From assembly GCF_009914755.1 (NCBI RefSeq), contig NC_060947.1: DNA of 64,000 nucleotides, one strand, 5' to 3'. Made by a program: the position numbers and the translations under genes. Position 1 is the first letter of the stretch. Each line of letters starts with the position of its first letter. This document shows, piece after piece, positions 12,973-34,728 of this stretch. The DNA is from the human T2T-CHM13v2.0 reference genome, Homo sapiens. The notes under the pieces were generated by a model. The model did not search any database, was not told where the DNA came from, and saw only the letters and a program-made list of their open reading frames with translations.

Positions 12973-14241
12973 GAGTCATGTTTTCAACCCATAAGAGTTC
13001 ATAGGTAAAGGATATATACATATATATATATATATATAGCCATCAACAAATGTTGACCTAAATTTACAACTCAAGCTTCCCAAACTACTCAATATGAGCG
13101 CTCAGGAGTACCAAATTCTTCAGGGTTTTCTGATGGACTTTGTCTTCATTTATTCTTTATGTTTTATGTTGTGCCTTGTCTTCATTTGAGCGTTGCCTCA
13201 CAGTCTTTTGGTTTTCAGCTGACACAAACATCAAATTAGTGAGAAGGAAAGTCTTTTGTTGGGGCTGTTTATGCCTGGTCTCTTTGAGAGTCTCAAGTGT
13301 CCTGGGGTGTCCAGAAGCCATTTTCTCAGTTATGTTTCTCAGGACACAATTCTGAGACATAAGGAGGCCTAACTGCCAAACTCCTCTTTGGGCTTCCTGC
13401 CATGGATTGTATTTCATTTCTAGATAATACAGCGAAAATAGAGCCATCCATACATTGCAGTATCATAGGGCTCAATGACTCATTAGACCTATGAAGAAAA
13501 AGGACACAAAAGGAAAAACATAAATAAATGCAAAAACTATATTCTGAATGATTTGGTTCAGTGGATAACAATAATTAAAAGGTGAGCTCACTTGATGAAT
13601 TTGGGGGAACAACCAAAAGATCATCAAAATTGTAGATGACTCAGAAATAGATTAAAAACAGACCTAACAGGTCACAGAATCTGAATTTCTCCTCTCCACC
13701 TTCTAAACATGCCTCGCGATTTTCTTAACCACCAAATCTTTCTCCTGATCATAGACAACTCTCACCCAGGTTGTCAACATATATAAAACTGGTTAAAATG
13801 ATGAGAGGTCTTCAAATTTATTCAGAGTAAATGCTGCTTTAAAAATGGTCATGCAGCATTGAAAAACGATCATGTGGAAAAAACATACTTGGACTGAAGT
13901 GAGACTATATAACCTGTCTGATTTGGGTACAAAACAGTCTTATTTCTTCCACGTTGGTCACAGTGACAATGATAATATTATTATTTTATGGATTTTCTGG
14001 ACATCTTCCATATGCACAGTTGGATGGTTATTTGATGCATTTATTTTTCTGAGTAGCTGATATTAAGTCAATTCTTGCTCTTGCTACATGAAACTAAGAG
14101 CTTTTCTTTCACAGTCACATACCACGGGCTCTGGCTAACCAGCATGCAGGGTCACAGTCAGGTCAAAGAAGCATCCTAAACCCAATTGTGTCTTAATTTT
14201 AGAAAATGGAAAAGATCAATATACTCCATGTAGAAGAATAG

Positions 14242-14596
14242 TGTATTAGTCTGTTTTCATGCTGCTGATAAAGACATACTCGAGACTGGGAAGTAAAAGA
14301 GGTTTAATTGGACTTACAGTTCCAAATGGCTGGGGAGGCCTCAGAATCATAGTGGGAGGCAAAAGGCAGTTCTTACATGGCAGTAGCAGGAGAAAATGAG
14401 GAAGATGTAAAAGCAGAAACCCCTGATAAAACCATCAGATCTTATGAGACTTATTCACTACCACAAGAACAATATGGGGGAAACCGCCCCCGTGATTCAA
14501 ATTATCTCCCACCGGGTCCCTCCCACAACATGTGGGAATTATGGGAGTACAATTCAAGATGAAATTTGGGTGGGGACACAGAGCCAAACCATATCA
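14242..14596 (-). mobile_element. THE1 (THE1C/B-like) solo LTR
   Basis: TGTATTAGTC...CCAAACCATATCA, 355 bp, perfect 5-bp TSD AATAG (14237-14241, 14597-14601). Confidence 0.92.
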
Positions 14597-14774
14597 AATA
14601 GGTAGGTACATCATGGACCCTGCATGAAAGAGAGTATTCTACAGATTTTAAGAGTCATGTTTTTAACCCATTTCAGTTCATGAGTAAATGATCAAAAATA
14701 CAATATTGACACATAAAGGCTATTGGTACCATCTATATATTAATTAAGTTTTTAGAGATATATATATCTTTAAG

Positions 14775-14817: not shown

Positions 14818-15254
14818 CTATATATGCCCCTCATTATACTCTCTCATGTTTATCTGCCACCATACATAGAAAGAGAGACACAGAGAGAAGGTGAAGAAGA
14901 AGGTGAGGGAAGAGGAGGTACGGGAGAGGAAGAGAAGGAGAAGGGGGAAAGAGGTGATAATTTTTAAAAAGCTGCAGTGCAATGCAAAAAAAAAAGCACC
15001 AGCACCTACAGAAAACAAACACCCACTTTAATTTTTCCCAGTGGTGGAATTGATTGTTCTGGGACCTGAGTAAAAGAGCAGGGATGTCTCTGTCTATTCT
15101 CTCTCTCGAGTCAGTCAGTGTGATGCTGCTGGCCTGTGTTTGTGTTTGAATGAGGAAAGACCTTCACTCTAGTAATGACCTAGCAGTTAGCTTGGAGGAC
15201 CTTGGACATATTTGTCCAGTTCCATTCAATACTCCCATAAAGTGCCTGTGGTAT

Positions 15255-15607
15255 TATATTAGTTTGCTTTCATGCTGCTGATAAAGATATGCCTGAGACT
15301 AGGAAGAAAAAGAGGTTTAATTGGACTTATAGTTCCACAAGGCTGGGGAAGCCTCAGAATCTTGGTGAGAAGTGAAAGGCACTTCTTACATGGCAATGGC
15401 AAGAGAAAAATGAGGAGAAGCAAAAGCAGAAACCCTGGATCTCACGTCAGATCTCATGAGACTTATTCACTATCATAAGAATAGCAAGGGAAAGACCGGC
15501 CCCCATGATTCTATTACCTCCCCCTGGGTTCCTCCCACAACATGTGAGAATTCTGGGAGATGCAATTCAAGTTGAGGTTTAGGTGGGGACACAGCCAAAC
15601 CATATCA
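15255..15607 (-). mobile_element. THE1C 3' LTR of an interrupted provirus
   Basis: THE1C-type 'aattctgggagatgcaattcaagttgag'; preceded by GGTAT (15250-15254); adjoins the polypurine tract (reverse complement of ttccacccctagcccctcc, 15608-15626). Confidence 0.92.
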
Positions 15608-16536
15608 TTCCACCCCTAGCCCCTCCAAAACCTCACATTTCAAAACAAATCATGCCTTCCCAACAGCCCCACAAAGTCTTAACTCATTTCAGCATTAACC
15701 AAAAAGTCCACAGTCCAAAGTCTCATCTGAGACAAGGCAAGTCCCTTCTGCCTATAAGCGTGTAAAATCAAAAGTGAGCTAGTTACTTCCTAGATACAAT
15801 GGGGGTACAGGTATTGGGTAAATACAGCCATTCCAAATGGGAGCAATTGGCCAAAACAAAGGGGTTACAGTGCCCATGCAAGTCCAAAATCCAGTGGGGC
15901 AGTCAAATTTTAAAGCTCCAAAATGATCTCCTTTGACTCCAGGTCTCACATCCAGGTCACGCTGATGCAAGAGGTGGGTTCCCATGGTCTTGGGTGGCTC
16001 CGTCCCTGTGACTTTGCAGGGTACAGCCTCCCTCCTGGCTTTCATGGGCTGGCGTTGAGTGTCTGCAGCTTTTCCAGGCCCACGGTGCAAACTGTCAGTG
16101 GATCTACCATGATGGGGTCTGGAGGATGATGGCCCTCTTCTTACAGCTCCACTAGGCAGTGCCCTAGTAGGAACTCTGTGTGGGGGCTCCAACCTGACAT
16201 TTCCCTTCCACACTACCCTAGCAGAGGTTCTCCATGAGGGTCCCACCCCTGCAGCAAACATTTACCTGGGCATCCAGGCATTTCCATACATCTTTTGAAA
16301 TCTAGTGAAGCTTTCAAAACCTCAATTCTTGACTTCCGTGCACCTGCAGGCACAACACCACGTGGAAGCTGCCAAGGCTTGGAGCTTCCGCCCTCTGAAG
16401 CCACAGCCCAAGCTGTACGTTGGCTCCTTTCAGCCAGAGCTGGAGTGGCTGGGACACAGGGCACCAACTCCCTAGGCTGCACACAACACAGGGACCCTGG
16501 GCCTGGCCCATAAAATACACGTTTTCCTCCTGGGCT
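15608..16536 (-). mobile_element. THE1 internal sequence, 3' portion, abruptly truncated
   Basis: Continuous THE1-int ('gtccaaagtctcatctgagacaaggcaagtcccttctgcct', 'ccaagctgtacgttggctcctttcagcc') ending at 'ttttcctcctgggct'. Confidence 0.9.
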
Positions 16537-17061
16537 AGAGATAACTAGATGAAGCCAGTACCTGGAATAAACATATTCTTTGTCATATTTTTTCTTATGT
16601 CTTAGTGACATAAAACTAGACATTTAGTGGTACTTAGGCAAACAGTTGAATAAACAACTAGCAATTAGCAGGAAAACTGGTTGAACATAGAAAGTTTAGT
16701 AACCATTCTAGTCAACTCTGTGTTCTTATTTTTTTTGGATTGTTGACTAGGTACTATGGATACAGTAACTAGAGTTACCTGGGTAAGAGTTAAATACAGA
16801 ATCCTCCATAAAACTAGAATAACTGGTTAAAGACAAGTATAAAATTTCATTCTTCTCAACATTTCTCATTTCTTGTTGGAATAATGAGTTAGTTCTGTTA
16901 ATGTGTAGTAGTACCTAGGTTACTACAAATCAAGAACTAGGAAGAGATGACTAGACTAGGATAAGTATTTGACACCAGATGGTGAAAAAAAAAAACCAGT
17001 GTTTTCAAATAGAAACTCTTATTTCCTGTGTGATTAATGAGTTAGAATTAGTACTGGAGCT

Positions 17062-17610
17062 ATCTCTATGAGATGTGGATTTCATTTTGGGGGGTGGTAC
17101 ATACTCAACAGATGAAATTTTGGGTCATATGGTAGTTCTATTTTGATTTTCCAAGGAACCATTATACTGTTTTTCATAATGTACCAATAACATTTCTGCC
17201 CTGTAAGGGTCCCCTTTTCTGCACAACCTAAAAGGGTTTCACTCTCTCCACACCTTTGCCATCATTACTTTTTATCTCTTGACTTTTTGCTAATACCCGT
17301 CCTAACAGGTGTGAGGTGATAGTTCATTGTGGTTCATTTGCATTCTCTGATTATTAATGATGTTGAGCACATTTTCATAAACCTGTCAGCCAGTTGTGGG
17401 TTTTCTTTCGAGAAATGTCTATTAAAGTCCTTTACCTATTCGTAAACCAGACTATTTTTTTTTTTTTTTTGCTATTGAGCTGTATGAGTTCTTTATATAC
17501 TTTGGATATTAACTCGTTATTAGATATATGGTTCACAAATAGTTTCTCCCAAACCATACCCTGCCTTTTCATTTTGTTGATTGTTGACTGTGCAGAAGCT
17601 TTTAGTTTCC
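17062..17610 (-). mobile_element. L1M (L1MA/MB-like) fragment
   Basis: 'gggtcatatggtagttctatttt', 'cctaacaggtgtgaggtgatag', 'gctattgagctgtatgagttctttatatactttggatattaac'. Confidence 0.8.
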
Positions 17611-17611
17611 A

Positions 17612-17754
17612 GGCTGCTCACTTGCCCTACATATTTCAGCTTCCTAGACCCCCACAATGTGTGAATGTGTGAGCCAATTGCTTAGAGTAAAGCATATCGT
17701 ATATAATATTATTCATAAATAAATACCATACAATAGTAAATAGATGTTTATGAC

Positions 17755-17799
<45 letters not shown>

Positions 17800-17851
17800 A
17801 AATATCCTGTTGGCTTAGTTTCTCCTTCTCTGAGGAACCCAGCCTGATACA
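17612..17851 (+). mobile_element. MLT2 (ERVL LTR) 3' fragment with internal (CA)n at 17762-17799
   Basis: 'cccccacaatgtgtg...gtgagccaatt...tcctgttggc...gaggaacccagcctgataca'. Confidence 0.6.
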
Positions 17852-18057
17852 AATACCCAGCTGAGCGAGTGTCTTTGCTGATCTTCACCGCCTGAAGCCA
17901 GTGCTTTAAACCATGAGAATGAAACATTGAGGGGCACTATGTGGACACTGGGAGAAGGAAGTGAGATGGAAAAGTTCTTTGATTGCATCCAAGAAGTGAA
18001 TGGTCCTCAAGGTGCAGCAGAGGAATTTGTAGGAGAGAGGGATGATTGATTGACGGC

Positions 18058-18360
<303 letters not shown>

Positions 18361-18654
18361 AACTGACGTCTTCATATAGCCCTCCGTCTATCCCAGTTAG
18401 CATGGAGGGATTTTAGGTAGGTCATACAGAAACTGGGTAATGATGGCAGGTGTGGAGGAACAGAATGTACCACTGAATGGGAGGTCCGGGGGAAACATGT
18501 GGCGGAAATATCCTCCCGTGCCACGTGATCTGCCAAAATTGAACATGGGGAGTTTAGGAGGGGTGACATGTCAGTTTGGGAACTATCTTTAGGGGTGCTA
18601 ACCCAAATCTCCCTTTCTCCAATTAGAGCACCCTGCCTTCCTCATTAGATGTCA

Positions 18655-19633
<979 letters not shown>

Positions 19634-19734
19634 ACGGCCAAGTACTCCCCTATCTCTGAGAGCAGCGACTAAGTTCAGGCCCAGCCGCCAGACCTCAGAG
19701 ATCTCACCAGCGGGGTGCTTGCCATTCTGATGAT

Positions 19735-19740
19735 AATAAA
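19735..19740 (+). terminator. Polyadenylation signal AATAAA
   Basis: ~100 nt after the stop codon, followed by GT-rich downstream elements (tgtgttg, tgtgttctct). Confidence 0.85.
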
Positions 19741-19784
19741 ATGAATGTGTTGCAAATTGATCTGAGTGACTCTGTGTTCTCTGA

Positions 19785-20279
19785 TGGTGGGGAGGGAGGG
19801 AGGGAGGGAGGAAGAGGTGGTGTGTGGGGGGGGAGGGAGGAAGAGGTGGTGTGTGGGGAGGGAGGGAGGAAGAGGTGTGTGGGGAGGGAGGGAGGGAGGG
19901 AGGAAGAGGTGGTGTGTGGGGGGGGAGGGAGGAAGAGGTGGTGTGTGGGGAGGGAGGGAGGGAGGAAGAGGTGTGTGGGGAGGGAGGGAGGGAGGAAGAG
20001 GAGGTGTGTGGGGAGGGAGGGAGGAAGAGGTGTGTGGGGAGGGAGGGAGGGAGGAAGAGGTGTGTGGGGAGGGAGGGAGGAAGAGGTGGTGTGTGGGGAG
20101 GGAGGGAGGGAGGAAGAGGTGGTGTGTGGGGAGGGAGGGAGGAAGAGGTGTGTGGGGAGGGAGGGAGGGAGGGAGAGGAGGTGTGTGGGGAGGGAGGGAG
20201 GGAGGGAGGAAGAGGTGGTGTGTGGGGAGGGAGAAAGGAAAGAAGGAAGGAACAAGTGGTATGTGGGGAGGGAGGGAAG
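19785..20279. repeat. G-rich VNTR (CRI-S232 RU2): ~16 units of GTGTGTGGGGA(GGGA)nGGAAGAG
   Basis: No C on the + strand from 19782 to 20252; 13 perfect GTGGGGAGGGAGG copies. Confidence 0.95.
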
Positions 20280-20669
20280 TGGGGTCCCGTGGGGTTGAGG
20301 TCACAGGGACAGGTCACAGTTAGCCAGACAGGAGGATAAGGATTGCGTCATGGCTGAGCACTGGAGACAAATTTCCCCTTCACAGGATGACTCCGCTTCT
20401 TACACGGTTTGTTTCTTCATGCAATCTTGCTAGCACATACACCAAGTACCAAGAACTGGATTCTACCTACTTAGGTTTCACTGTCAAAATACCTTTTCGG
20501 TTATAGAAACCGATGGAAGAATCGTTTCCATCTCTTTCCTTTCAGCGTCCCCTCCCTGCAATCTAATATAATTAAGAAGAAAAATTCAAAGTAGAGAAAA
20601 ATCTATCTACTTGAAAAAAGCCTTTTTATTTTTGCAACTCAGGAGACAGAAAGTACAATTCATATTTCC

Positions 20670-22105
20670 ATACATTAGAAATACACAGGTCTTTTCTACA
20701 TCTAGTAGAATTTACTATATACAAATATATGTAAATTTTTATATAAATAAAATATACAACTATATTTACTATAGACAAACAGATTATATGTTTACATATA
20801 AAATATATACATATAGACAAAATATGGAATATATATTTATATATAAAATATATAAGTATAAATAAATGTAAATATAGATTATACACATTAGAAATACACA
20901 ACTCTTTTTTGTACATAGTAGAACCTATTATGTATATTTATATATTAATATATCTTCTTATGTTTTTATATTTAGATTACATATATAAATATTTATATTC
21001 TATATATTATATATAAAACATTAAACATATATTTATATTTATAAATAATATATCAATATAGACATCAAATCTATATATGAAACCTATCTATAAATATAAA
21101 TACATGAAAATAGATATATATAAATATATATAAAATATATATTCTATATGTGATCATTTATTTTAGAAGGTAAGGTGTTGTGATTGTTGAAGCATCCTTC
21201 ACAGATTAAAAAAAGAAAGGAAATTATCATTTTAAGAAAAATAAAATAAAAATAAAAAATAAATAAAGTACAAAATTCCCAGTTGTCAATAATTACAATG
21301 AGAGAATAATATAGAACTTGCTATATATAGAAAGTATTTCTATATATATTTCTAATATATATATTATGTATATAGTATTTCTAATGTGTATATATGTAAT
21401 GTACATTTATATATATAATTATATAAATGCACAGATCTTTTCTATATATAGTATAATGCACTGCTGTATTTCTAATGTGTTATATATATTAAACCTATAT
21501 TTATATATATTTATATAAATACACAGGTTTTATACATATTTATATAAATACACAGGTATTTATATAAACATATAAACACACAGGTCTTTTCTATGTATAG
21601 TAGAATTTTGTATAGTAGAATTTATGATACATTTAGAAAAGACCTGTGTATTTCTATATTTATATTTAGAAAAGACCTGTATATTTCTAATGGATATATA
21701 TATAGTTTGTATTTATATGTATATTTATAGATAAATATATAATCTCTATATATTTATATATCTATTTCTATGTATTTACATTTAGATAGAGATCTATTTC
21801 ACATATAGATTATATAAATATATTCTATGTAAATATATAAATACATATATAAATATGTAAATATATTTATATTTATGTATAATATATAAATAATATATAA
21901 ATATGTAATGCATAAAGATAAATATACAATATATAAAATATATATTCTATATGTGATCATTTATTTTAGAAGGTAAGCTGTTAGTATTGTTGAAGCATGC
22001 TTCTCAGGCAAAAGGAGAAAGGAAATTATCATTTTAAGAAGAATAAAGTACAAAATTATCACAATTTAATTTCCAGTTGTTAATAATTACACAGACAGAA
22101 TAACT
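20670..22105. repeat. AT-rich low-complexity block with direct and inverted duplications
   Basis: (TA)-rich; recurring ACACAGGTCTTTTCTA motif in both orientations; ~170-bp segment duplicated at an 803-bp offset. Confidence 0.85.
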
Positions 22106-23191
22106 CATGTCCTTTAATCTTACAATGAATAGCACGTTAAACTTTTATGTGATTCTGAAAATATGAATTTCCATATAATAAGGGTTTGAGATGTAAAGCA
22201 CTAACTTTATAGGCAGTTTTCACTTGTTACATAGATTGTTCTTAGAGCTTTAAAGATGTTAAAATTAATGGTGACTTTGAAGAGATGGTAGCATCATTTG
22301 AGAAACAATAAATGGGTTCTGTTTCATCCTTTCCTTGGTGCAGTCAGGGCTTCACTTCATTAGCTTAGGAAGGGATTTCAGAGCTTTGCATGTTGATCTT
22401 GTAGTTGCCTCCTGTGGAATCCTACGAAACCTAGGACGCTATACCACAGAAACAGGGCCTTGCCCCATGTCCTGAACACCATCATTTTGTGGTATATTTC
22501 TTTTGTATTATTTCTTATATGGAAATACCATATAAGAATGAGCATGCTTGGTATAACTCAAAGCCTGTTTATTTGCAAGGCTGTATTGACCCTGGACAAT
22601 AAATATTTGTATGTTACGGATGAGAAACAAGTCTGCATGAAAAGCTCCTGCTGTCTTTTAGGAAAGCGTATTGGCTGTGGTTGTATATCTCTTTCCAAAG
22701 GGAAATTGGTGAACTCTCTGCTATAGTTTTTTCCATAATGACAGCATAAAAACTGAAATAAACTTATCTTGTCAGTGGCCACTTTTGGGGTTGGTGTATA
22801 TTAGGGAGCACTTTTGCAATGTGTTTCAAAATTACATTCAAGGATTAATTTCATGCACCTTATTTTAATGCCATATTTCCATTCAAGCTCTGCATGTCAA
22901 AACAGTCTGTGATGATTCTTTTGGCATTGAAATAATTATCCATGGCACTTAAACCGTGTTTCTTTCATCATTTCATGGCAGTAGGAGCTTCAACTGCTAT
23001 TTGTTGGGAACCCATCCTGACTAGCTCTTTCACTAGGGCTTCATGTTTTATTGTGATGATTGGCAGACTTGTGTTTCAGACATTTTCAGATTTGGAAAGT
23101 TACTATGATTTTGAAATTATAGATGCAAAAATGTCATTGAATTTACTTTCACAAACTTTTAATTCATTATAGACAATAAGAGGTTTAATCA

Positions 23192-23560
<369 letters not shown>

Positions 23561-24325
23561 TCATTTAAGTCTCTCTTTATTCTACATGTTATACACACAG
23601 TTAAATTAGTTAATAAGAGTGTTAAATACTTTCCCTCCTTCTCCAACTACCCACAATCTCAGGCTTAAAATAAACAGTGGAATGCGTAAAGACCCAAAAT
23701 AATATAACAGCAAAGGTGCAGTTGACTTTTGTAATCAAATGATAAATATCAAAGCTTCCTGACGTTTTTAGGCAAATCTTCCTGTGTCCCTAAAAGGAGG
23801 ATCCCCTTGACAGCAGTCATGAACAACAGGTGATCTGAAATTCTCAGCTGTCAAAGACGGTGGGAGAATTTGAAAACACCTTGTACATATTAAAGAGCTA
23901 AGCATGAGCTGATGCATACATACATATGTCTCTGTCTCATTAGACCACAGGAAACAGGACACATGGCAGGAAGGCTCACGTCGATTCCCCTTGACCATGC
24001 AGCTTCCTCTGCTCCTGACTCCTAAGAACTTTCTGACCTATTGGTCATTCCCAGCTTCAGATCCCCACGCATACCGATTGTTTTTGGCCCCACGTCAGTG
24101 ATACACACGACACAGAATTGCTCTCAAAAAACACTCTGGAATTGAAAAATGACAGGGGAAGCTCAACGCGATGGCTGGGTGCCAGAGGGAAGGCCTTCCG
24201 CTGTTTTGAACACTGATGCTAAGCTCTAGAATAACTGTAGCTGCAGCCTGTTGGACCTGGGCATGTGTCAGGCAGGGTGTGAAATGCTCCCCAAGCACGA
24301 CCTCATTTCTCCCTCACGTTACCCC

Positions 24326-24814
24326 TGTGGATTAATCGGGGCTCTAGAGAGACACCACCAACAGGTTATCAGCAAAGATAGATGAGAGGGGATTTATTAG
24401 GGGAATTAGAGGGTGAAAAGTCTCAGGACAGGCTGTCTGCAAGCTGGAGCCCCTGGGATGCCAGGAGCGTGACTCAGGTCACAACCAAAAACCTCAGAAC
24501 TAGGGAAGTGGATGGTGTAATTCTCAGTATAAAAGGAGCCTGAAGTTCTGGTGTTCAAGGGCAGGAAAAGAAGAATCCCAGCTCCAAGAGAGAAAGGGAG
24601 GAAAGTGCCTTTCCTTTGCCCTGTTTCTTCTATCTGGGCCCTCAGAGAATTGGATGGGGCCTGTCTCTATTGAAGACATCTTCCCCACTCTGTCCACCAG
24701 CTCACGCCAATCTTCCCAAGAATACCTGTGCAGGCTCACCTAGAAACAATGCTTTACTAATTCCTGACGTATTCCTTAAGGCAGTCACGTTGACACCTGA
24801 AATTAACCATCACA
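24326..24814 (-). mobile_element. MLT2C-like ERVL LTR
   Basis: Ends 'cagtcacgttgacacctgaaattaaccatcaca' (reverse of the MLT2 start TGTGATGGTTAAT); internal 'caggacaggctgtctgcaagctggag'. Confidence 0.8.
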
Positions 24815-25889
24815 CCCTGTAAAATGGGTAGTGTCCCCACTGGACAAATGAGACAGACAGTTTGGGTACCTTTCTTATACTGCTTATAGGTTATAGAGCC
24901 AGGATTAAAACTCAGGTCTGCAAAGACCAAATTCTAAACTCCACCCTCTTAAGGACTGCTGCTCAACACTGTGGAAGCAGTACTGCATTAGACACTGTAC
25001 GAGGATTGAAGAGGCATTCGAGACACATCCCCTGCTTTAGGGACCACATCTTAGCTTGCATTCATGACAGGAGTCATGTTTCTGTGACTCTACTATAGAC
25101 CCCGGAACCAAGTGTGAATTGGTACGCTTTAGGTGTGCATACGCTCTGCAGAAATCCTAAGAAAGAGCCAGATAATTATAGGCTCGATTCATATAGGGAA
25201 GTTTTTATGAAAACAGCTTTTAGCCAATTCCTGAAAGAAAATATTTTTACTGGCAGAAAAATGTTCTGCTAGAGAATAACTAGTTGAAGGGCTTTGGGGG
25301 AAGGGGCTCTGGACACATGTCCACGGAAGTGGGGAAAAAAGACACACAGAATAGAAACAGAATTGGGGACCCTTCAGGAAGAGAAGTAAGGAAAAGTGCT
25401 AGCCCAGTAAGCCGATATGTAATTTTGAATCTTAACTAGATTGAGAATTTGGATACAACTCAAAACTAGAAAAGAGTAATTGCACTAAAAAAAAATGGCG
25501 CAGAGCAGGGTAAATTAAAATAAAAATTCATTAATAATGAATTAAATTATTCATTCAACAAACATTTATTGGGCACCTTCCATGGTCCAGGTAGAGGGCT
25601 ACATGCTAATCAAAAAATAATAATCGCTGCCAGGACTGAGCAATGCCTGTGAGTCATCCTTAGACTGGTGCTGGAAGATAGATGGGGCTGTCTTATTCCA
25701 TCCTGAGTTTACAAGAGATGACCCTGAGGACCAGCCAGGCTAAATAACCTTTTCCAGATCACCTAGTACTTGAACCGAAGCTTGTCTGACTCCAAAGCCC
25801 ACACGTTCTCTGATACGCCATGCAGCCAGAAAAGGGCAGTGAAGTACTAAGGTTTGCTAAGGTGTTGAGTATATGGAATAAGATACTCA

Positions 25890-26762
25890 GGAGTATTTTT
25901 AAACTTGTGGTAAAACACACACGACACGACATATACACTCTTAACAAATGTTGAGGTGCATGGTACGGTATTGTTAACTATATGCCCATTGTCCTACAGT
26001 GGATCCTTACAACTTTCTGGGATGGTTAATATTGTCAACTTGGTTGGGTTGAAGGATGTAAAGTATTGTTCCCTGGTGTGTCTGTGAGGGTGTTGACAAA
26101 GGAGATTAACATTTGAGTCAGTGCACTGGGAGAGGCAGACCAACCCTCAGTCTGGGTGGGCACCATCCAGTCAGCTGCCAGCGTGGCTAGAATAAAGCAG
26201 GCAGGAGGTGGGAGAAGCCGACTTGCTGAGTCTTCTGGCCTCCATGTTTCTCCTGTGCCAGAAGCTTCCTCGAACATCAGACTCCAAGTTCTTCAGCTTT
26301 TGGACTCTTGGACTTACACCAGTGTTTCGCCAGGGGCTCTCTGGCCTTTGGCCACAGACAGACTGAAGGCTGCGCTGTGGGCTTCCCTACTTTTGAGGTT
26401 TTAGGACTTGGACTGGCTTCCTGGCTCCTCAGCTTATAGACGGGCTATTATGGGACTTCACCTTGCGATCATGTGAGTCAATACTCCTTAGTAAACTCCC
26501 TTCATATATGCATCTATCCTATTAGTTCTGTCCCTCTAGAGAACACTAATACACTTTCTCGTCTTGTATGACTGAAACTCCATGCCCATTGCACCTCAAT
26601 TCCCCATTTTCCCCTCCCCCAGCCCCTAGCAATGACCATTCTACTTTCTGTGAGTTTAACTATTTTAGATATTTCATAAAAGTAGAATTGGGCAGCATTT
26701 GTCCTTCTGTGACTGGCTTGTTTCACTTAAGCATGATGTCCTCAGGTCCATCTGTCCTGTAG
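25890..26762 (-). mobile_element. L1MA/MB 3' end, interrupted by an MLT2A LTR
   Basis: 'ttgtggtaaaac...gtattgttaactat' | 'cagcccctagcaatgaccattctactttctg...ctgtgactggcttgtttcacttaagcatgatgtcctcagg'. Confidence 0.8.
26018..26553 (+). mobile_element. MLT2A (MLT2A2-like, HERV-L) solo LTR
   Basis: TGGGATGGTTAATATTG...TCCCTCTAGAGAACACTAATACA; perfect TSD CTTTC (26013-26017, 26554-26558). Confidence 0.92.
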
Positions 26763-27317
26763 GAGTGGTTTCTGACATCCTACAAAGTGAGAGGGTTTTG
26801 AAACTTGTGAGACATGCACAAAGGTGGAGAGACTACTATAGTGATCACCATGTTTTCATCATGCAGCTCCAACCACTACAAAAGTCAGCTAATTCCATTT
26901 CACCTGTTACCCTCTCCAAACCTGACCTATCCCCTGCCCAACTCAGTTATTTTAAAGCAAGTCCTAGATTACTTTTTAAGTAAACTGACTTGGGCGTGTT
27001 TAAGAATTTGCCTCAAGTCAGATGGTTTTGATTTTTTAATTTTTTCCTGGTGACAACAGTAATCCAAGATTGAGTAACAATTATTCAAGCCTTACAGAAG
27101 CACACAGAGAGTAACATTTTATAGATGTTACATTTTATAGATCCTCAGTGAGGATCTATATTAGCGATGTGATATATGCCACTGTAAAGCTCTTTCCCAC
27201 CCTGTCCATGTGCTAATGTTGACCTCACAATGTTGTGAGCTTACGTTGCTCTCTAACGCTGTTCACTTAACAGTATAGCCAGACAATGATTTCATCATGG
27301 AACTGAAGCTGAAGATG

Positions 27318-27413
27318 CTGTTCCAACCTCTGCCTGTTACCCAGTTCCAATGTCGCTTCCACATTTTTCAGGTAACTATTCAGCAACTCCCCACTCTATT
27401 GGTACCAATTTAC
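27318..27413 (-). mobile_element. THE1 internal sequence, first ~96 bp after the 5' LTR
   Basis: 'ctgttccaacctctgcctgttacccagttcca...cccactctattggtaccaatttac' is the THE1-int segment adjoining the 5' LTR. Confidence 0.88.
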
Positions 27414-27767
27414 CATATTAGTCCATTTTCATGCTGCTGATAAAGACATACCCGAGACTGGGAAGAAACAGAGATTTAATTGGATTTACAGTTCCACATG
27501 GCCGGGGAGGCCTCAGAATCATGGCAGGAGGTGAAAGGCACTTCTTACATGGCAGCAGCAAGAGAAAATGAGGAAGATGCAAAAGCGGAAACCCCTAATA
27601 AAACCATCAAATCTCATGAGACTTATTCACTATCATGAGAATAGCACGGGAAAAACTGGCCCCCATGATTCAATTACCTCCCTCTGAGTCCCTCCAACAA
27701 CACGTGGGAATTCTGGGAGATACAATTCAAGTTGAGATTTGGATGGGGACACAGCCAAACCATATCA
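27414..27767 (-). mobile_element. THE1C 5' LTR of the interrupted provirus
   Basis: THE1C sequence ending CCAAACCATATCA, followed by GGTAT (27768-27772). Confidence 0.92.
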
Positions 27768-28095
27768 GGTATTATATATATAACATAAGAAATACATGTT
27801 TAGTCTCTGGCCCTCAGTTCCTTGCACCGGAACTTGCCAGGAATGCCTAACAACCTCTAGGTAGAGGTGCTAGGAGAATCTTTTGTTCTAATATTTTGTA
27901 TTTGACCCTCAGTTCCTGACACAGAGCCTTTAAGTCCCTAGGAATGTTTTGGGTGATAGGAGCATCTTTTGTTCTCCTGGTGGGCTCCTGAACAGCCTCA
28001 CGATGGAAGCAGATTGCCAGGGAAACCAACCATGTCATTAGAGGGTTAGAGCTCCCTCTAGGAAGGGGAGAGCAACTGAAGGTTGAGTTGATCAC
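27768..28095. mobile_element. MER21 (MER21C-like) LTR, partial
   Basis: 'ataagaaatacatgtttagtctctggccctcagttcc...cagttcctgacacagagcc...gtgataggagcatcttttgttct...accaaccatgtcattagagggttagagct'. Confidence 0.75.
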
Positions 28096-28137
28096 TTGTC
28101 TTAGTCCATTCAGGGTGGTATAACAAAATACCTTGCT

Positions 28138-28290
28138 GGAGGAGGAAGAAGATGAAGGAGGAGAGGAGAAAAATAAGAAGAAAAGAGGGATGAGAAGGGA
28201 GAAGAAGAAAGAGAAGGAGGAGGAGAAGGAAGAAGAAAAGGAAGAGTGGAAGAGGAAGGAGGATAAGATGAAGATGACGAGGAGGAAAAA
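28138..28290. repeat. GA-rich (GAA/GAG)n low-complexity tract
   Basis: Direct inspection. Confidence 0.85.
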
Positions 28291-29739
28291 TAGAATCTTA
28301 AGAGACATTAACAAATGACTATCTCTAAGTGACAACATTATAGTAACTTTTACTGTTTTTTATTTTCAAGATTTCCAAAATATCATTAACTATTGTCGTA
28401 ACTGGTACTGTATAAAATTAAGAGAGTGTAACAAAGCTGAAACCCCAAATTTTGTGAAAAGCAAGATGCATAGGAGTCAAAAGCTGCTATTAGGAAAAAA
28501 AAAAATAGGGACAGGGCCCCAAGCATTACATGAGGTTAATGTTGGTTGTTTTCTGATGAACACAACACAGGAGAATGTGAGGATCAGGCTTGAGGCTCTA
28601 CCCTTACTTTCAGTAATAGGGGACAAGAAAATGTCTGCATCAAAGAATCAAGGTTAAGGATAAAGAGGTTTCCTTTTAAGCAATTCTGTGGGCTCACTGC
28701 ATCCCCAGCAAGATCCCTTTATTTAGTTTCAAGGCATGGAAGTGTCAAACTGTAAGTTACCTATAGTGTAATACCACTCAGACTAAATTTAGACCAGGAA
28801 GCGTAGTGCACTCAAAGCAAGTAAGCATTAGTCTAAAAGTGATTGTCCTACTGACAGAAGACATGTTGTTTTGCTACCTTTTCCCCACAAATTACTGTGG
28901 TCCTGTATATCAGTTGGGGAGAACGGCACTATTCACTTAGGACAAGTATGAAGAAAATAATTGTTAAATTGTTAAATCCTTACCTTTGGCACCCACCCGA
29001 AGAACTGTGCTTTTACACAAATGAACACGAATGAATACGACTTTTGAAAACAGAGCATTCTTACTCCAAGGTAGTGTGTTAGTAGGAAACTTAGATGATC
29101 TTGATTGTACTTCAGCAAAGGCATGAGTGCCAGGCAGATGCTGTTCTGACGGCTCTGTGTGGTCTGACAGCTGGTTGAGGTGCCATTGGCATTCATTTGA
29201 GATGGTCACCTGGGAAACCGAAATTAACATAGCATCCCTGAATCAGGTAATCATGCACCATCCTTTACCAGGTAGCCACTTTGGGTTTGAACCAAAAAAA
29301 GATGAGCTTGAAAGGTGTGGAGCCTGTAGTAGTGTTACTTGAAAAAGACCTTGTCCTTTATCTAGTTTTGTTGGCACAAGAAAATAAGCATATTTCTTGT
29401 TAGATCTCTTTTTACGCTAGCTATCAGGAGGATAGTTAAACTCTTCATGCAGCATGACAAAGATTTTTTTCAGACATATTTCAGATAGCTGAGATTCCTT
29501 TCTTTGACACACACACACACACACACAAACAAGTATACAAAGCATATACTTGTATATATTTTAATTTTATACTTTTGATTCCTATTATGTTAAATCTTGG
29601 AAATTTTTCAAAAAGCATTTTAAATTATTTAGCTGTTATTTTTGTTTTAATACTGTTATTAAACAATTTCTGTTGTAAACACATTTTCTTATCTCCAAAG
29701 ATAGCACACACTTAGTCAATGTTTCTTATCTTCTTGGTC

Positions 29740-30780
29740 ATCTTCTCCTCTTCCAAATGTTGAACTCTCCCAAGACCCCATTCCTGACACCTGTTTTTCC
29801 TCCAGCTCTTCTGCCTCTGCAGACAATGTTATCCATTCCCATGGTTGTGTATAGCGTTTATATCACGATGACCCCAAATTCTTATCTCCTGTTCTGACTT
29901 CTCCTCTAAAGTCCTAAATCCTAAATCTAACTGCCTAATTCGTATCTACATTTGGATGCCTACAAGGCAACTCAAAATCAGCACGTCCAAAATAAAGCTA
30001 TTGGTTCTAGATCCTACACAAACTCCAGCTCTCTTCTTCAGTTTCTGTGTCTCAGTGAACAGCATGTGCACCCAGGCATATACACGTGATTCCTGTCTTT
30101 CCCTCATCTCACATCCATTAACAGGCTGTATTAATAACTCTTGTCAGCTCTGGTTTTATATTATATTCCACATCTGTTCAATTTTCTTCATTTCCACTAG
30201 TGTCACCTTATTCCATGCAGCCATCATCTTTCATCTTCGTTCTTGCAAGAGTTTCCTAAATGGTCTTCCAGACACCATTAGCTGAAAATTCCCATACTTT
30301 GGGTTATAAAATATTATTCCTTGGATCAAAATTCTCCAGCACTTCCAAACATACTTTAAAATGGAAGCGAAACTCTTACCTAGCCGAGAAGTTCTTATGT
30401 GACTCGGGCTTATGCCCTTCTGCAACCTCATTCCCTCTCACTCTCCTCTCAGTCATGATTCCTTCAGTTCTGTTAGCTCAATGTTTTAGTTCCTTAAACA
30501 CTCAAAGCTAACATTCAGGCCTGAACACTCAGGCTAAACACTCAGGCCTACAGCCTGTTTTAGAAGCTGCTCCCTCTGCCTGGAATAATCTTCCCCAGTA
30601 TCTTCATATGTCTGAGTTCTTCTCGTCTTTTAGATTGCAATTTATATATCTACTCCAAAAAAAAAAAGAAAGAAGCCAGCCCTGACACTACAAAATGAAG
30701 CCATCTACCAGTCAGTCTTCCTAACATTTACCTGACATATTTTTTTCGTGTCACTTATTACTTACTATTTACTTGACTTT
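29740..30780 (+). mobile_element. L2 fragment
   Basis: 'gatgacccccaaattcttatctcc', 'tctacatttggatgcctacaaggcaactcaaaatcagcacgtccaaa', 'gctgctccctctgcctggaat'; boundaries approximate. Confidence 0.75.
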
Positions 30781-32919
30781 GAATAAGTCATCTTTTTACA
30801 TTTCATATTCTCTGACTTTAAAAAGAGCATATTTCATAAAGTTGATTTGAGTATTAAAGGAGTTAATACACATCAAGTGCTGAGAGTAAATATTCACAGA
30901 AGCAATCAATTTATTCTTCCACACAGCAGTCAGTAAATGTTGGTGGACTAGTATTAACTATCATATTATTCAGGATATGAACTAACTTGTTTTAAATTGC
31001 AGACGATAAGTATTAATTCTGCCATGAAGTGCCCGTATCCAATTTTCAAATCACCATTGCTGCCTTCACACTCAAGCAGGTCAGATGGCAAAAGCCCTAA
31101 AAGTGTATAGCTAAAATTACTACACAATGACACTATAACCGTTCTTGCATGTGTCTTTGGTAAACACATGTACCCACTTAGGTTGGATATTTACCTAGGA
31201 ATGAAAATACTGGGTCGTAGAGCATGCATGTATTCAGCTTGTAGATACTTCTGAACAGTTTCCCAAAGTTCTTTTTCCAAAATACACATTTATACTATAT
31301 TTTAGGTATAGTCAAAAGATTTTCAAATTAGCTATCATAAAAAAAATTATCTGAGAATATAATCCATGTGACAAAACATATTCCTATTAGCTCAAAAGAT
31401 TATTATAATTAGAAAGAAATATATCAGCATAAAAATGATATAGGAATTACAAATTATATATCACTCTACATTTGTAATGCCTATATCACTGTTTGGAATA
31501 TCTCATTATTTTAATTGTAACCAATTACTCCAGTTGGAAGCGTCACAGCAAGCAGTATTATATATTTTAGGAATAAATTGAATATATCATCCAATATCTC
31601 ATCCTAACTTCCTACTCTTTCATTTATTAAAGCGTCAAAGTTCCCATTAATGCTCATAAGAATTTTGAATCCACATAAATATATAATTAAGCTGAAGGTG
31701 AATATCTTTCAGGTGGATTTACCAGCAAGTATGAATGTTAAAATGATAGCTAATATACATTTCTACTTTTAATTTATTCAGTGCAGTTATGATACTGCTA
31801 CAATACTCATATTGTTGTGCCATCTATAAGGTTTAAAAATAATTAACATGAAGATGATGTTCTATAATTGTTTTATTGGTTTTTTTATTGTGTGCAAATC
31901 TAATATTGCCTCACTATTGACTCCCTATATAAACAAACTATTTTCCAATTCCTTACAGTAGACAAATATGCTTATTCAATAAGAGAAATGAATATATTGA
32001 AAACAATTTTGATTAATAATATCTTGTATCTTAAGACACAACTTCAAATATTGTGGCATAAAAATTGAATCTAATAATGTGCCTTTCTAGTGGACTTTAC
32101 TATCAAAATAAAAATTCTTAGAGTTAACCTTCTATGGTTTGGAGATAGCGCTATCATAAACTTTGTTACTTTGTTGTGTTTTTTTAAGACTCTTTCCCCA
32201 GTCTACGGACACAACATATTTAATCTGAGTTGTATGTGATGTGTGGTGTGGTTAATTTATTGCCCCGGTTTACGTAAAGTGTGTTAATTATATTTAATTT
32301 GGCATTTTACTTTCACTGTCTAATCAGATTCTAACTATAGAAATTGACAACTTGTGGCTAAATTCATTCTCTTCTTGTGTTTCCAATTGTGTTTTCATTG
32401 GGCTCCTCCTTTGTGTCATTTTTTGTATGTCTTTTGATTTGGTCTTACTAATTTACCTGGACGAAGGAGTAAATCCTACAAAAGTACAAATACATTTATC
32501 ATGGTCTTTATATTGGGAGAACTAATCAATTGGGCTTCATTTTTTAGAATTTGTGTTTTTCTTATGCAATATGGGTTTAGAAGTGGATAGAAAATAAACC
32601 CATTTGGAACATATACGAAGCCCAGTGTTGGTCTAAACTTCCTCACAGGTTACTTGAGTCCTGATCCATCACAAATACAAACACATTTAAAAACATAAAG
32701 CATTATTACAATGGAATCAAAATACCATGACTAAATCCATTTTCCCATCACAATGTCATTTCTTAGATGAATACAAACAATGTTCATATTAAATAGCCAT
32801 TTCTATCATGGATATGAGTTTCTGGTGACTTGTCTTTGCATAATAAAAAGATCTCATTTTTACATAAGCAAAACGAGCACCATAACTTTGCATAATTTAT
32901 GTTTGTATCTTGGCTTTGC

Positions 32920-33130
32920 TGAGAGTTAGATACAATGGAAGGAACAAGGGCATCGAAATCAGGCAAATGTGAGTTCTAAACCAAGCTCTGACATGTGACT
33001 TCAAATTGATCACCATACCATTCTGAGCTGTGGCTCCATCTTATGCAGGATGGAGACAACAATACCTTGAAAAAATATTTGTAAGGCACTTAGCAGACCA
33101 TAAGGTGAGTTGCCCCTCGAAATGCTTGTA
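32920..33130 (+). mobile_element. MIR fragment
   Basis: 'gtgagttctaaaccaagctctgac...ctgagctgtggctccatcttatgcaggatggagacaacaatacc...tgtaaggcacttagca'. Confidence 0.6.
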
Positions 33131-33280
33131 GCAATTTACAACCTTCCATTACCATTTGATAATTCCACTGAATTCTCTACCCCACTGCCCATATCCAACC
33201 AGCTGTTAAGCTGTTGCTATTTGATCTGGAATAAAGTCAAAAGTGGCTGTATGGCTTTGAATGCCCAGGTGGCAAGGTGG

Positions 33281-33980
33281 TATATTAGTCAGTTAAGGCT
33301 GCTATAATGAAATATCATAAACTGGGTGGCTTATAAACAGCAGACATTTATTTCTCACAGTTTTGGAGGCTGGAACTCCAAGATCAAGGCATGGCAGATT
33401 CTGTGTCTGCTGGACTAAATTCCTGGTTCACAGAGATGGTGCCTTCTTGTTATACCCTCACAGGGTGGAAGGGGCAAGGGAGTTCTCTGGGGTCCCTTTT
33501 ATAAGGGCACTAATCGCATTCATGAAGACATTACCTTCATGACCTAATCAACTCTCAAAGCCCCCAACTCCTAATACTATCTGGTGGGAGTTAGGATTTC
33601 TTTTTCTTTTCTTTTTGTTTTTTTTTGTTGTTGTAGTTTCTTTGAGACAGAGTCTCTTGGTTGCCCAGGTTGGAGTGCAGTGCCAAGATCATGGCTCACT
33701 GCAGCCTCAACCTCCCATGCTCAAGTGATCTTCCTGCCTCAGCTCCCCCAAGTAGCTTGGACTGCAGGCACGCGCCTCCTCACCTGGGTAATTTTTGTAT
33801 TTTTAGTAGAGACAGAGTTTCACCATGTTTCCCAGGATGGTCTTGAACTCCAGAGTTCAAGCGATCCACCCGCCTTGGCCTCCCAAACTGTTAGGATTAC
33901 AGACATGAGCCACTGCACCTAGCCAGAGGTTAGGATTTCAAGAAAGGAATTTTGGTGACATAAACATTCAGTCTGTTGCA
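33281..33980 (-). mobile_element. MLT1A/A0 LTR split by an Alu
   Basis: 'ctgggtggcttataaacagcagacatttatttctcacagttttggaggctgg'; resumes after the Alu; GTTAGGATTTC duplicated on both sides of the Alu. Confidence 0.85.
33601..33924 (-). mobile_element. AluJ-like
   Basis: 'gatcatggctcactgcagcctcaacctccc'. Confidence 0.9.
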
Positions 33981-34340
33981 GTGGGTGATAAAAGATGATG
34001 CTGACAGTCTTGCAGGGTCTATTTTATGGAGACCCCAAGTGTCGTATTTAATTAAAGCTAGTCTTTACTCTAAAGGGCAAAGGCCTTTGAATGTGCTCTT
34101 CCTTTGTCTGGATGTTCTGCTATTCTGCATTCATCCATTTCCTCCCTATTCTCCTCTCTGGATTATCACATACGTAATGCCAACTCCTATTTCAAGGAAA
34201 CAACACATCTTTTCCAAGATGGAAGCTTTTTTAAAAAAATTTTCTGCCACATTTCATCTGCTCCATTTCAAATTGCTGGTTCCTGATAGATGCCACTTTC
34301 TTCATGAAGTTTGACTTGCACCTGTAACTGATTTAGGGAC

Positions 34341-34728
34341 TGTATTAGTCCATTCTCACACTGCTATGAAGAACTACCTAGACTTGGTAATTTATGAAGA
34401 AGAAAGGTTTAATTGACTCACAGTTCCACAGGCTGTAAAGGAAGCATGGCTGGGAGCCCTCAGAAAACTTACAATCATGGCAGAGGGTGAAGGGGAAGCA
34501 AGCACGTCTTACCATGGCAGAGGAGGAGAGAGAGAGAGACAGAGTGAAGGTGGAAGTGCTACACAGTTTTAAACAACCAGATCTTGTGAGAACTCATCAC
34601 TATCATGAGAACAGCAAGGGGAAATCCACTCTCATGATCCAATCACCTTCCACAGGGTCCCTGTCCCCACATTGGGAATTACAATTCGACATGAGATTTG
34701 GGCAGGAATACAGAGCCAAACCATATCA
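34341..34728 (-). mobile_element. MSTA solo LTR
   Basis: TGTATTAGTCCATTCTCACACTGCTAT...CCAAACCATATCA; near-TSD GGGAC/GCGAC. Confidence 0.88.

What the first reader, a model, noticed from the sequence alone, without database searches (positions are those of the whole stretch)
15247..27800. The ~10.8-kb VCX gene block is nested inside a single THE1C provirus
Seen in sequence: two same-orientation THE1C LTRs (15255-15607, 27414-27767; roughly 85% identical by eye) are bounded by the same 5-bp GGTAT (15250-15254, 27768-27772). Each LTR adjoins the correct end of THE1-int (15608-16536 with the PPT; 27318-27413). Rejoining the outer flanks gives TGTGGTAT|TATATATAACATAAGAAATAC..., which resembles an intact MER21 LTR terminus. 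Between the internal halves lies 16537-27317, containing VCX, RU1/RU2 and much older repeats (L1M, MLT2C, L2/MIR-like pieces). Established: MaLRs make 5-bp TSDs, THE1-int is ~1.6 kb (so ~0.55 kb is missing here), and those older families were inactive before THE1C spread. Inference: the VCX duplicon arrived as one block, replacing part of the provirus. This would mark the duplicon ends, make this copy derived rather than ancestral, and date it after THE1C insertion in simians. It also leaves the gene as an LTR-flanked cassette. I am not aware of this being described, but cannot check.
Basis: partly seen in the sequence, partly recalled or inferred. Interest (0 to 1): 0.85.

Follow-up and report, generated by a model that had tools for sequence, protein, structure and literature searches.

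The report
VCX block nested in THE1 provirus
The VCX gene copy next to PNPLA4 sits in a 10.8-kb piece of duplicated DNA that landed inside an old THE1 retroelement on the X chromosome after the X and Y stopped recombining here, and the Y-linked VCY unit carries a scar of that event.

Summary

- **Provirus:** the window holds one THE1-type provirus on the minus strand. Its LTRs are 15255-15607 and 27414-27767, and both are flanked by GGTAT. A 10.8-kb VCX block (about 16536-27317) splits it and replaces 545 bp of THE1-int. Each junction has 1-2 bp of microhomology.
- **Three states of the site:** an older paralogue at chrX 7.2067 Mb is empty, with the flanks adjacent and one copy of the pentamer. 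The collinear chrY site at 15.035 Mb has the same provirus uninterrupted, including the 547 bp missing here. The window has the provirus plus the block. So the block entered on the X after the stratum-4 X-Y split.
- **This copy is truncated:** four other Xp22.3/Yq VCX/VCY units and an ancient Xq28 paralogue continue past the left junction. The Xq28 paralogue also continues past the right junction.
- **VCY carries the scar:** the proximal VCY unit has the window's right junction, the 96-bp THE1-int piece and an LTR. Its distal part therefore came from this X copy (p=0.058, against 0.155 for the gametologous flanks).

The MER21 and THE1C names could not be tested. No paper found describes the nesting. 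Interest is moderate.

The parts
15250..15254 (.). Left copy of the 5-bp target-site duplication, GGTAT
   Evidence: The Y gametologue has AGTAT here. The empty-site paralogue has a single GATAT.
15255..15607 (-). 3' LTR of the THE1-type provirus (353 nt)
   Evidence: It differs from the other LTR at 54 of 353 sites.
15608..16534 (-). 3' part of THE1-int, with a purine-rich tract next to the LTR
   Evidence: 37 THE1 copies end at about 16535. (aligns to 8024552-8025804 of a full-length copy). (collinear with the Y gametologue up to 16533).
16535..16536 (.). Left junction. C (or CT) is shared by THE1-int and the donor-type sequence, giving 1-2 bp of microhomology.
   Evidence: Alignments.
16537..27317 (+). 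Inserted VCX duplicon block of about 10.8 kb (about 10.16 kb without two later Alu-like insertions)
   Evidence: homologous to chrX 6.08, 7.72-7.74, 8.03 and 8.575 Mb, to chrY 14.88-14.97 Mb, and at 69-83% to Xq28 151.45-151.51 Mb.
17939..19760 (+). VCX gene (annotation supplied with the finding). The CDS reads through a 30-bp repeat array.
   Evidence: Hub annotation. (186-aa translation). (30-bp unit x8.2 at 19382-19627).
19787..20240 (+). Purine-rich 29/59/92-bp tandem array (RU2-like), followed by AT-rich low-complexity DNA to about 21945
18050..18363 (.). Alu-like insertion found only in this copy
   Evidence: the coordinates of the 6.08-Mb, 8.03-Mb and both Y copies are contiguous across it.
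23199..23503 (.). Second Alu-like insertion found only in this copy
   Evidence: the other copies and Xq28 are contiguous across it.
26018..26553 (.). High-copy repeat of about 535 bp. It is present in the window, the 6.08-Mb copy and the Y unit, and absent from Xq28. Homology with the 6.08-Mb copy ends at its edge.
27318..27413 (-). 5' (primer-binding-site side) 96 bp of THE1-int. C27318 is a 1-bp microhomology at the right junction.
27414..27767 (-). 5' LTR of the provirus (354 nt)
27768..27772 (.). Right copy of the target-site duplication, GGTAT
   Evidence: (the Y gametologue has TGTAT).

Best explanation
A THE1-type MaLR element inserted once at this Xp22.3 site and made a GGTAT target duplication. 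This happened before the X and Y stopped recombining here.

Later, on the X lineage only, about 10 kb of VCX-family DNA was copied into the element's internal region. The block contained the VCX gene, its 30-bp coding repeat, the purine-rich array and downstream sequence. The event was non-homologous: 545 bp of THE1-int were deleted, each junction has only 1-2 bp of microhomology, there is no target duplication, and the gene's intron is retained. This fits end-joining or replication template switching, and rules out retroposition.

The source was a longer VCX-type locus whose sequence continued past both ends of the block. This copy is therefore a truncated, derived one.

Afterwards the copy gained two Alu-like insertions and exchanged sequence with its paralogues by gene conversion. 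Its distal end, including the block/THE1 junction, was passed to the Y, where it now forms the distal end of the proximal VCY unit.

Shown: the anatomy, the three states of the site, the junctions, and the extents of the paralogues. Inferred: the repair mechanism, the dates, and the route to the Y.
For: 1. A single provirus: matching GGTAT TSDs. The int parts are collinear and non-overlapping with a 545-bp gap against a full-length copy.
2. Empty site: at chrX 7206401-7207050 (minus) the left and right flanks abut, with one GATAT.
3. Pre-insertion state: chrY 15034602-15037096 (minus) aligns to window 15089-16533. It then carries 547 bp absent from the window, then aligns to 27318-27549 and 27721-28006. 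Those 547 bp match THE1-int in 21 held loci, 17 of them over at least 538 nt. The Y TSDs are AGTAT and TGTAT. X-Y collinearity continues at least 3.7 kb further left.
4. The X-Y p-distance over flanks and THE1 is 272/1755 = 0.155. This is near the roughly 87% stratum-4 identity quoted in PMC5413550 (passages read).
5. This copy is truncated on the left: the copies at chrX 6.08 Mb and 8.03 Mb and both Y copies share sequence immediately left of the junction, for 1.25-3.4 kb. The 7.736-Mb copy and the Xq28 paralogue also cross it.
6. Right end: the Xq28 paralogue diverges exactly at 27318.
7. Transfer to VCY: chrY 14884302-14887524 aligns to window 24522-27768 at 92.6%. It has the identical block/THE1-int junction and then an unrelated flank. 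Differences are 160/2771 in the block and 2/96 in int5'.
Against: - The proximal VCY unit combines the left flank of the other copies with this copy's right junction. The simplest one-step story (both window junctions original, VCY copied whole from this copy) therefore cannot be complete. Either VCY is a mosaic, or the window's left junction is a later deletion.
- No extant X copy reaches window 26554-27317, so no present-day donor can be named.
- Identity among copies is mosaic, from 87% to 99.7%, so divergence-based dates are unreliable.
- The window's leftmost 1.5 kb is about 10% diverged from the other X copies. Given rate differences, that does not clearly place the insertion after the X-Y split (0.155). 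The order rests on the Y structure and not on distances.
- No non-human primate genome could be examined.
Confidence: 0.88

Rival explanations
1. The original insertion into the provirus was larger and included the 3.4-kb left flank seen in the other copies. VCY was copied from that stage. The present left junction at 16535 would then be a later deletion in the X copy.
For: The proximal VCY unit has both the shared left flank and the window's right junction. A single ancestor carrying both would explain this without invoking a mosaic.
Against: On the Y, the unit's left end abuts unrelated DNA, not THE1-int. At the 8.03-Mb copy the left flank is preceded by a different, full-length THE1 and by flanks with no homology to the window. 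The Y unit is closest to the window copy only on the right: 96.2% at 25600-26500, against 86.5-88% at 16644-18049. This looks like a mosaic.
Confidence: 0.15
2. Two independent THE1 insertions happen to flank DNA that was already there. The matching pentamers are coincidence.
For: LTR-LTR identity (84.7%) is no higher than between unrelated THE1 copies (78-89%), so it does not by itself prove a single element.
Against: The Y site has the same flanks, the same TSD (one change on each side) and an uninterrupted element of about 2.09 kb. The empty-site paralogue joins the flanks directly. The two int parts are complementary, with a 545-bp gap.
Confidence: 0.01
3. This nested copy is the founder of the Xp22.3 VCX family, and the other copies were duplicated from it.
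For: It reaches further right than any other X copy (27317, against 26553, about 25417 and 23891). The Y unit inherited its junction.
Against: The other copies and the much older Xq28 paralogue contain contiguous sequence left of 16535 that this copy lacks. None of the X copies carries any piece of this provirus.
Confidence: 0.05
4. The THE1 LTRs now have a regulatory role for VCX, as an LTR-flanked cassette or LTR promoter.
For: Only position: the LTRs bracket the gene at about 2.3 kb upstream and 8 kb downstream.
Against: The element is antisense to VCX. The annotated first exons (17939-18011, 18735/18848-18982) lie inside the block. The four other VCX/VCY units held (chrX 6.08 and 8.03 Mb, both Y copies) retain the homologous gene region at 97-99% without this provirus. 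No expression data were examined.
Confidence: 0.03

Closest known systems
THE1 / ERVL-MaLR non-autonomous LTR retrotransposons
   Same: LTRs of about 350 bp, a 5-bp target duplication, and a non-coding internal part of about 1.56 kb. The window element is collinear with at least 17 other copies in this genome.
   Different: The internal part is interrupted by 10.8 kb of foreign genomic DNA and has lost 545 bp. The subfamily (THE1C) could not be assigned here.
CRI-S232 / VCX low-copy repeats of Xp22.3 that mediate STS deletions (name and RU1/RU2 terminology recalled; PMC5705219 and PMC3308322 cite Van Esch 2005 for NAHR at VCX)
   Same: It contains the VCX gene, the 30-bp array and the purine-rich array. 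It is 87-99.7% identical to the other units.
   Different: This unit is truncated on the left at a THE1 junction, extends furthest on the right, and has two private Alu-like insertions.
Non-homologous duplicative insertion of genomic segments (segmental duplication by end-joining or template switching)
   Same: The block shows a small target deletion, 1-2 bp of microhomology, no target duplication and no poly-A tail, and it retains the intron.
   Different: Here both the empty and the pre-insertion target alleles survive in the same genome, as a paralogue and a Y gametologue. This gives unusually direct polarity.
X-to-Y sequence transfer at VCY (gene-conversion hotspot: Trombetta 2010 as cited in PMC4104316 and PMC5413550; VCY 'acquired' in PMC7585023; 'proto-sex-chromosome origin' in bioRxiv 10.1101/2024.04.02.587783)
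   Same: VCY carries X-derived sequence that is far less diverged than stratum-4 neighbours.
   Different: The reported conversion tracts are about 95 bp and lie inside the gene. Here a tract of at least 1.9-3 kb outside the gene carries a structural tag (the block/THE1-int junction) that can only have arisen at this X locus.

Membership tests
THE1-type MaLR provirus (single element) | Two same-orientation LTRs of about 350 bp | tested here: met
   353 and 354 nt, differing at 54 of 353 sites.
THE1-type MaLR provirus (single element) | Identical 5-bp target-site duplication, and an unoccupied site with one copy | tested here: met
   GGTAT twice. The Y copy has AGTAT and TGTAT. The paralogue has one GATAT with the flanks abutting.
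THE1-type MaLR provirus (single element) | Internal parts in the correct order and orientation, with no overlap in element coordinates | tested here: met
   They align to 8024552-8025804 and 8026350-8026798 of a full-length copy, leaving a 545-bp gap. The Y gametologue fills the gap with 547 bp of THE1-int.
THE1C subfamily; MER21 host repeat; L1M/MLT2C/L2/MIR content | Assignment by RepeatMasker/Dfam consensus | not testable with these tools
   No repeat library was available. The left flank has only 4 genome matches, which argues against a high-copy host LTR there.
VCX / S232 low-copy repeat | VCX gene with a 30-bp coding repeat plus a purine-rich array, and homology to the other Xp22.3/Yq11 units | tested here: met
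   for the repeats. for the homology.
Non-homologous duplicative insertion | Donor-type sequence continues past both ends of the insert in paralogues | tested here: met
   Left: five units (chrX 6.08, 7.736 and 8.03 Mb and both Y copies) plus Xq28. Right: Xq28 only.
Non-homologous duplicative insertion | No target duplication for the insert, a target deletion, microhomology only, and no retroposition marks | tested here: met
   A 545-bp deletion and 1-2 bp of microhomology. The intron is retained.
Strict stratum-4 gametologue pair (this VCX copy and VCY) | The Y gene lies at the site collinear with the X gene | tested here: not met
   The collinear Y site (15.0346-15.0371 Mb) has the provirus without any block. 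VCY lies 70-150 kb away.
Strict stratum-4 gametologue pair (this VCX copy and VCY) | Divergence equal to the neighbouring gametologous DNA | tested here: not met
   0.058 (160/2771) against 0.155 (272/1755). Gene conversion could also lower it.

The most novel reading that the evidence does not exclude
VCY may not be a simple relic of the proto-sex-chromosome pair. The proximal VCY unit may be a mosaic built on the Y, or on an X intermediate, from at least two different X-linked VCX units. Its left 3.4-kb flank, including the outer 195 bp of another THE1 LTR, would come from the type now at chrX 8.03 Mb. Its distal part, at least 1.9-3 kb, would come from the THE1-nested copy in this window. 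The exchange appears to end inside a THE1 LTR: window-Y differences jump from 2/96 in int5' to 50/351 in the LTR. The block/THE1-int junction would then be a unique molecular tag for tracing when and how often X-to-Y transfer occurred in apes. That bears on the conflict in print between 'VCY acquired in the human-chimpanzee ancestor' and 'proto-sex-chromosome origin'.
Probability: 0.6. Interest if true: 0.6.

Novelty: new member of a known kind. Interest (0 to 1): 0.5.

Why it matters
- **Polarity for one VCX copy.** VCX is a clinically relevant, fast-evolving family: its units mediate STS/X-linked ichthyosis deletions, and VCX/VCY is discussed as a co-amplified X-Y pair. The copy next to PNPLA4 is shown to be a derived insertion made after stratum-4 formation, with exact breakpoints.
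- **The proof lies within one genome.** The empty site, the filled site and the filled-plus-block site all survive in it.
- **A structural tag for VCY's history.** The same junction sits beside VCY. It shows a kilobase-scale X-to-Y transfer and can be scored in the complete ape sex chromosomes. Published statements about VCY's origin disagree (PMC7585023 against bioRxiv 10.1101/2024.04.02.587783; passages read in both).
- **No new mechanism.** Nested insertions and duplicative transposition are ordinary.

Tried and rejected
- **Y flank outside the VCY unit's LTR.** I searched the genome with it to see whether that LTR is a resident gametologue of an X LTR. A common repeat filled all 40 scored places other than the self match, and no long X homologue appeared. 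Inconclusive.
- **Window 28000-40000.** I searched with it to extend X-Y collinearity on the right. A repeat filled all 38 rows and even the self match was not listed. No information, so right-side collinearity rests on 300 bp.
- **ORFs in the Xq28 paralogue.** 17 ORFs of 42-93 aa, none resembling VCX by eye. Not pursued.
- **Xq28 as direct donor.** Rejected because it is 17-31% diverged from the block, more than the LTR-LTR distance of 15%. It is an older paralogue.
- **The full-length THE1 beside the 8.03-Mb copy as the origin of the window's left half.** Rejected. It is no closer to the window's element than other THE1 copies: it is not among the 37 best and is 82-89% identical. Its outer flanks also do not match the window.
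**Bhowmick et al. 2007** (PMC1832091) is not held.
- **Supplements.** Supplementary notes of PMC7585023 (Note S7) and of the bioRxiv preprint (Note S1), which may discuss VCY's origin in detail, were not seen.
- **Literature on the nesting.** VCX + THE1 gave 11 papers, none relevant; Altemose 2017 mentions the two separately. VCX + segmental duplication + LTR + STS deletion, at least 3 of 4 terms, gave 5 papers, none relevant.


Full report
**Naming.** The paralogous copies are given by T2T coordinates (contig C23 = chrX, C24 = chrY, as the tool reports them). By recalled hg38 position and strand, chrX 6.08 Mb (-) should be VCX3A, 7.72-7.74 Mb (-) VCX2 and 8.03 Mb (+) VCX3B. The chrY pair at 14.88-14.97 Mb should be VCY/VCY1B in palindrome P8. 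These names come from no call. My scripts labelled the 8.03-Mb copy 'VCX2'.

**1. The observation.**
- Reading the sequence shows GGTAT at 15250-15254 and 27768-27772. It directly abuts two THE1-type LTRs, 15255-15607 and 27414-27767.
- The LTRs differ at 54 of 353 aligned sites.
- The element is on the minus strand. The 96 bp at 27318-27413 are the primer-binding-site end of the internal part. 15608-16534 is its 3' end, with a purine-rich tract next to the LTR.
- Searching the whole genome with 16300-16800 gave 40 scored matches: the query itself, 37 THE1 copies that all stop at query 232-237 (window about 16535), and two chrX places that begin at query 236.
- The mirror search with 26900-27420 gave 40 scored matches: the query itself, 37 THE1 copies that start at query 418-420 (window about 27318), one chrY match over the whole query, and one Xq28 match that stops at query 419.
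- Against a full-length 2260-bp THE1 at chrX 8024539-8026798, the window's two parts align to 8024552-8025804 and 8026350-8026798. They are complementary, and 545 bp are missing.
- A third THE1-like LTR at 14242-14596 has its own AATAG duplication. It is an independent solo LTR.

**2. Three states of the same site in one genome.**
- The outer flanks were searched separately.
- Empty site: at chrX 7206401-7207050 (minus, 74-75% identical) the two flanks abut, with a single GATAT.
- Intact provirus: on chrY the flanks lie 2.09 kb apart. The fetched 2.5 kb aligns to window 15089-16533. It then has 547 bp with no counterpart in the window, then aligns to 27318-27549 and 27721-28006. The Y copy has lost about 170 bp of the right LTR.
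- Those 547 bp are THE1-int. They match 21 held loci, 17 of them over at least 538 nt at 77-83%. The Y target duplications read AGTAT and TGTAT.
- X-Y collinearity continues at least 3.7 kb further left and includes the solo LTR. On the right I could show only 300 bp, because one search was swamped by a repeat.
- Over flanks and element the X and Y copies differ at 272 of 1755 sites, p=0.155. This is in the range of the roughly 87% stratum-4 identity quoted in PMC5413550 (passages read).
- The Y therefore preserves the pre-insertion allele. The provirus was one element, and the block entered it on the X lineage after X-Y recombination stopped here.

**3. The junctions.**
- Left: THE1-int runs to ...CCTCCTGGG and the block starts CTAGAGATAAC. 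C or CT is common to both sources.
- Right: the block ends ...GAAGATGC and THE1-int resumes TGTTCCAACC. The C is shared.
- There is no duplication of target sequence, 545 bp of target are lost, and the VCX intron is present.
- I infer a non-homologous DNA-level duplicative insertion (end-joining or template switching), not retroposition.

**4. This copy is truncated relative to its relatives.**
- The copies at chrX 6.08 and 8.03 Mb and both chrY copies share sequence immediately left of the window's junction.
- That shared flank runs 1.25 kb in the 6.08-Mb copy and 3.4 kb between the 8.03-Mb copy and chrY.
- The copy at 7.7356-7.7387 Mb and an old paralogue at Xq28 (151474832-151476228, 78%) also cross that point.
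- On the right, the Xq28 paralogue (82%) matches up to 27318 and then continues with unrelated sequence.
- Xq28 is collinear with most of the block at 69-83%. It even has a VCX-like TATA region, first exon, splice donor and intron, but no start codon.
- It is too diverged to be the direct donor. It does show that the contiguous arrangement is ancestral and that the window's ends are breakpoints.
- The other X copies end earlier on the right: window 23891 (8.03 Mb), about 25417 (7.72 and 8.575 Mb) and 26553 (6.08 Mb). No present-day donor can therefore be named.

**5. VCY carries the scar.**
- chrY 14884302-14887524 aligns to window 24522-27768 at 92.6%. It has the same block/THE1-int junction, the 96-bp int piece and an LTR. 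The flank is unrelated from the first bases outside the LTR.
- The junction could only form where the provirus was, and the Y's own copy of that provirus is intact. This part of the VCY unit therefore came from the X copy in this window.
- Differences are 160/2771 in the block and 2/96 in int5', but 50/351 in the LTR, with a sustained rise from about 27460. This suggests, but does not prove, that the exchange ended by recombination inside a THE1 LTR. One earlier 60-bp bin also has 21 differences.
- The same Y unit has the left flank of the other copies, down to the outer 195 bp of the LTR of the full-length THE1 beside the 8.03-Mb copy.
- It is nearest to the window only on the right: 96.2% at 25600-26500, against 90.3% to the 6.08-Mb copy, and 86.5-88% at 16644-18049.
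- It also lacks the window's two private Alu-like insertions.
- I read the Y unit as a mosaic. The alternative is that the original insertion was larger and the window later lost its left flank. That cannot be excluded (about 15%).

**6. Dating (inference only).**
- The relative order is: THE1 insertion, then the X-Y split, then the block insertion, then transfer of the junction to the Y.
- The junction-bearing tract is about one third as diverged as the gametologous flanks (0.058 against 0.155).
- Absolute dates are unreliable. Identity among copies ranges from 87% to 99.7% in a mosaic pattern that indicates gene conversion.

**7. Literature.**
- A VCX + THE1 search found 11 papers, none on this structure (passages of PMC5705219 read). 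A second search with VCX, segmental duplication, LTR and STS deletion found nothing relevant.
- X-to-Y conversion at VCY is known, with tracts of about 95 bp (PMC4104316, PMC5413550, PMC3308322; passages read).
- VCY's origin is stated differently in different papers: after the macaque split (PMC6790999, citing Hughes 2012), acquired in the human-chimpanzee ancestor (PMC7585023), proto-sex-chromosome origin (bioRxiv 10.1101/2024.04.02.587783), and a gametologue pair (PMC13616518). Passages only were read in each, and their supplementary notes were not seen.
- The nesting would be visible in any RepeatMasker track. I call it undescribed only as far as these searches go.

**8. Verdict.** The kind of event is ordinary. 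The value lies in the exact polarity it gives for one VCX copy and in the junction tag beside VCY.

Noticed in passing
window 14242-14596 (TSDs 14237-14241 and 14597-14601): A solo THE1-like LTR, in the same orientation as the provirus and 650 bp upstream. It has its own AATAG duplication and is 90-92% identical to many genomic copies, so it is probably a younger subfamily. It is also present at the collinear Y site.
   Followed up: partly
window 18050-18363 and 23199-23503: Two Alu-like insertions present only in this VCX unit. The other X units, both Y units and Xq28 are contiguous across them. One lies upstream of or inside the first intron region of VCX.
   Followed up: partly
L047 (chrX 151500001-151510000), about 2580-3040; also chrX 151453122-151453363 and 151474832-151476228: An old Xq28 paralogue of the whole VCX block (69-83% identity), scattered over about 57 kb. 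It has a VCX-like TATA region, first exon, splice donor and intron, but no ATG. It is a possible relic of the progenitor of the VCX family. Its gene context was not identified.
   Followed up: partly
window 24200-25800 against chrX 6.080-6.082 Mb: Identity to the 6.08-Mb copy rises to 98.7-99.7% here, against 82-96% in the adjoining stretches. The same happens at 18200-19400 among all X copies (97-99.5%). These look like recent gene-conversion tracts.
   Followed up: no
chrY 14888817-14890320 against 14965223-14966612 (L029/L030, L037): The two chrY VCY units are 99.9-100% identical through the gene and left flank, but only 90-94% identical distal to the purine-rich array (window-equivalent 21900-23891). 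The distal arm's homology stops at window-equivalent 24031. The near-identical palindrome arms therefore seem to end inside the VCX-type unit.
   Followed up: no
chrX 7718796-7721890 and 7735593-7738711 (minus); chrX 8575113-8579329 (plus): One VCX-type unit has its two halves about 14 kb apart, presumably because of a very long purine-rich array. A partial unit without the gene region lies at 8.575 Mb. Both are known from search tables only.
   Followed up: no
chrX 8024539-8026798 (L044/L045) and chrY 14898228-14898421: A full-length 2260-bp THE1 lies 3.2 kb left of the 8.03-Mb VCX-type unit. The outer 195 bp of its LTR and the LTR/flank junction are shared with both chrY units, where the LTR is truncated against unrelated DNA.
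   Followed up: partly
window 53647-54005 and 56596-56959: Another pair of THE1-like LTRs, in the opposite orientation and about 2.9 kb apart. It is probably a second provirus. They are 84-86% identical to an LTR at chrX 6093758-6094133 near the 6.08-Mb unit.
   Followed up: no
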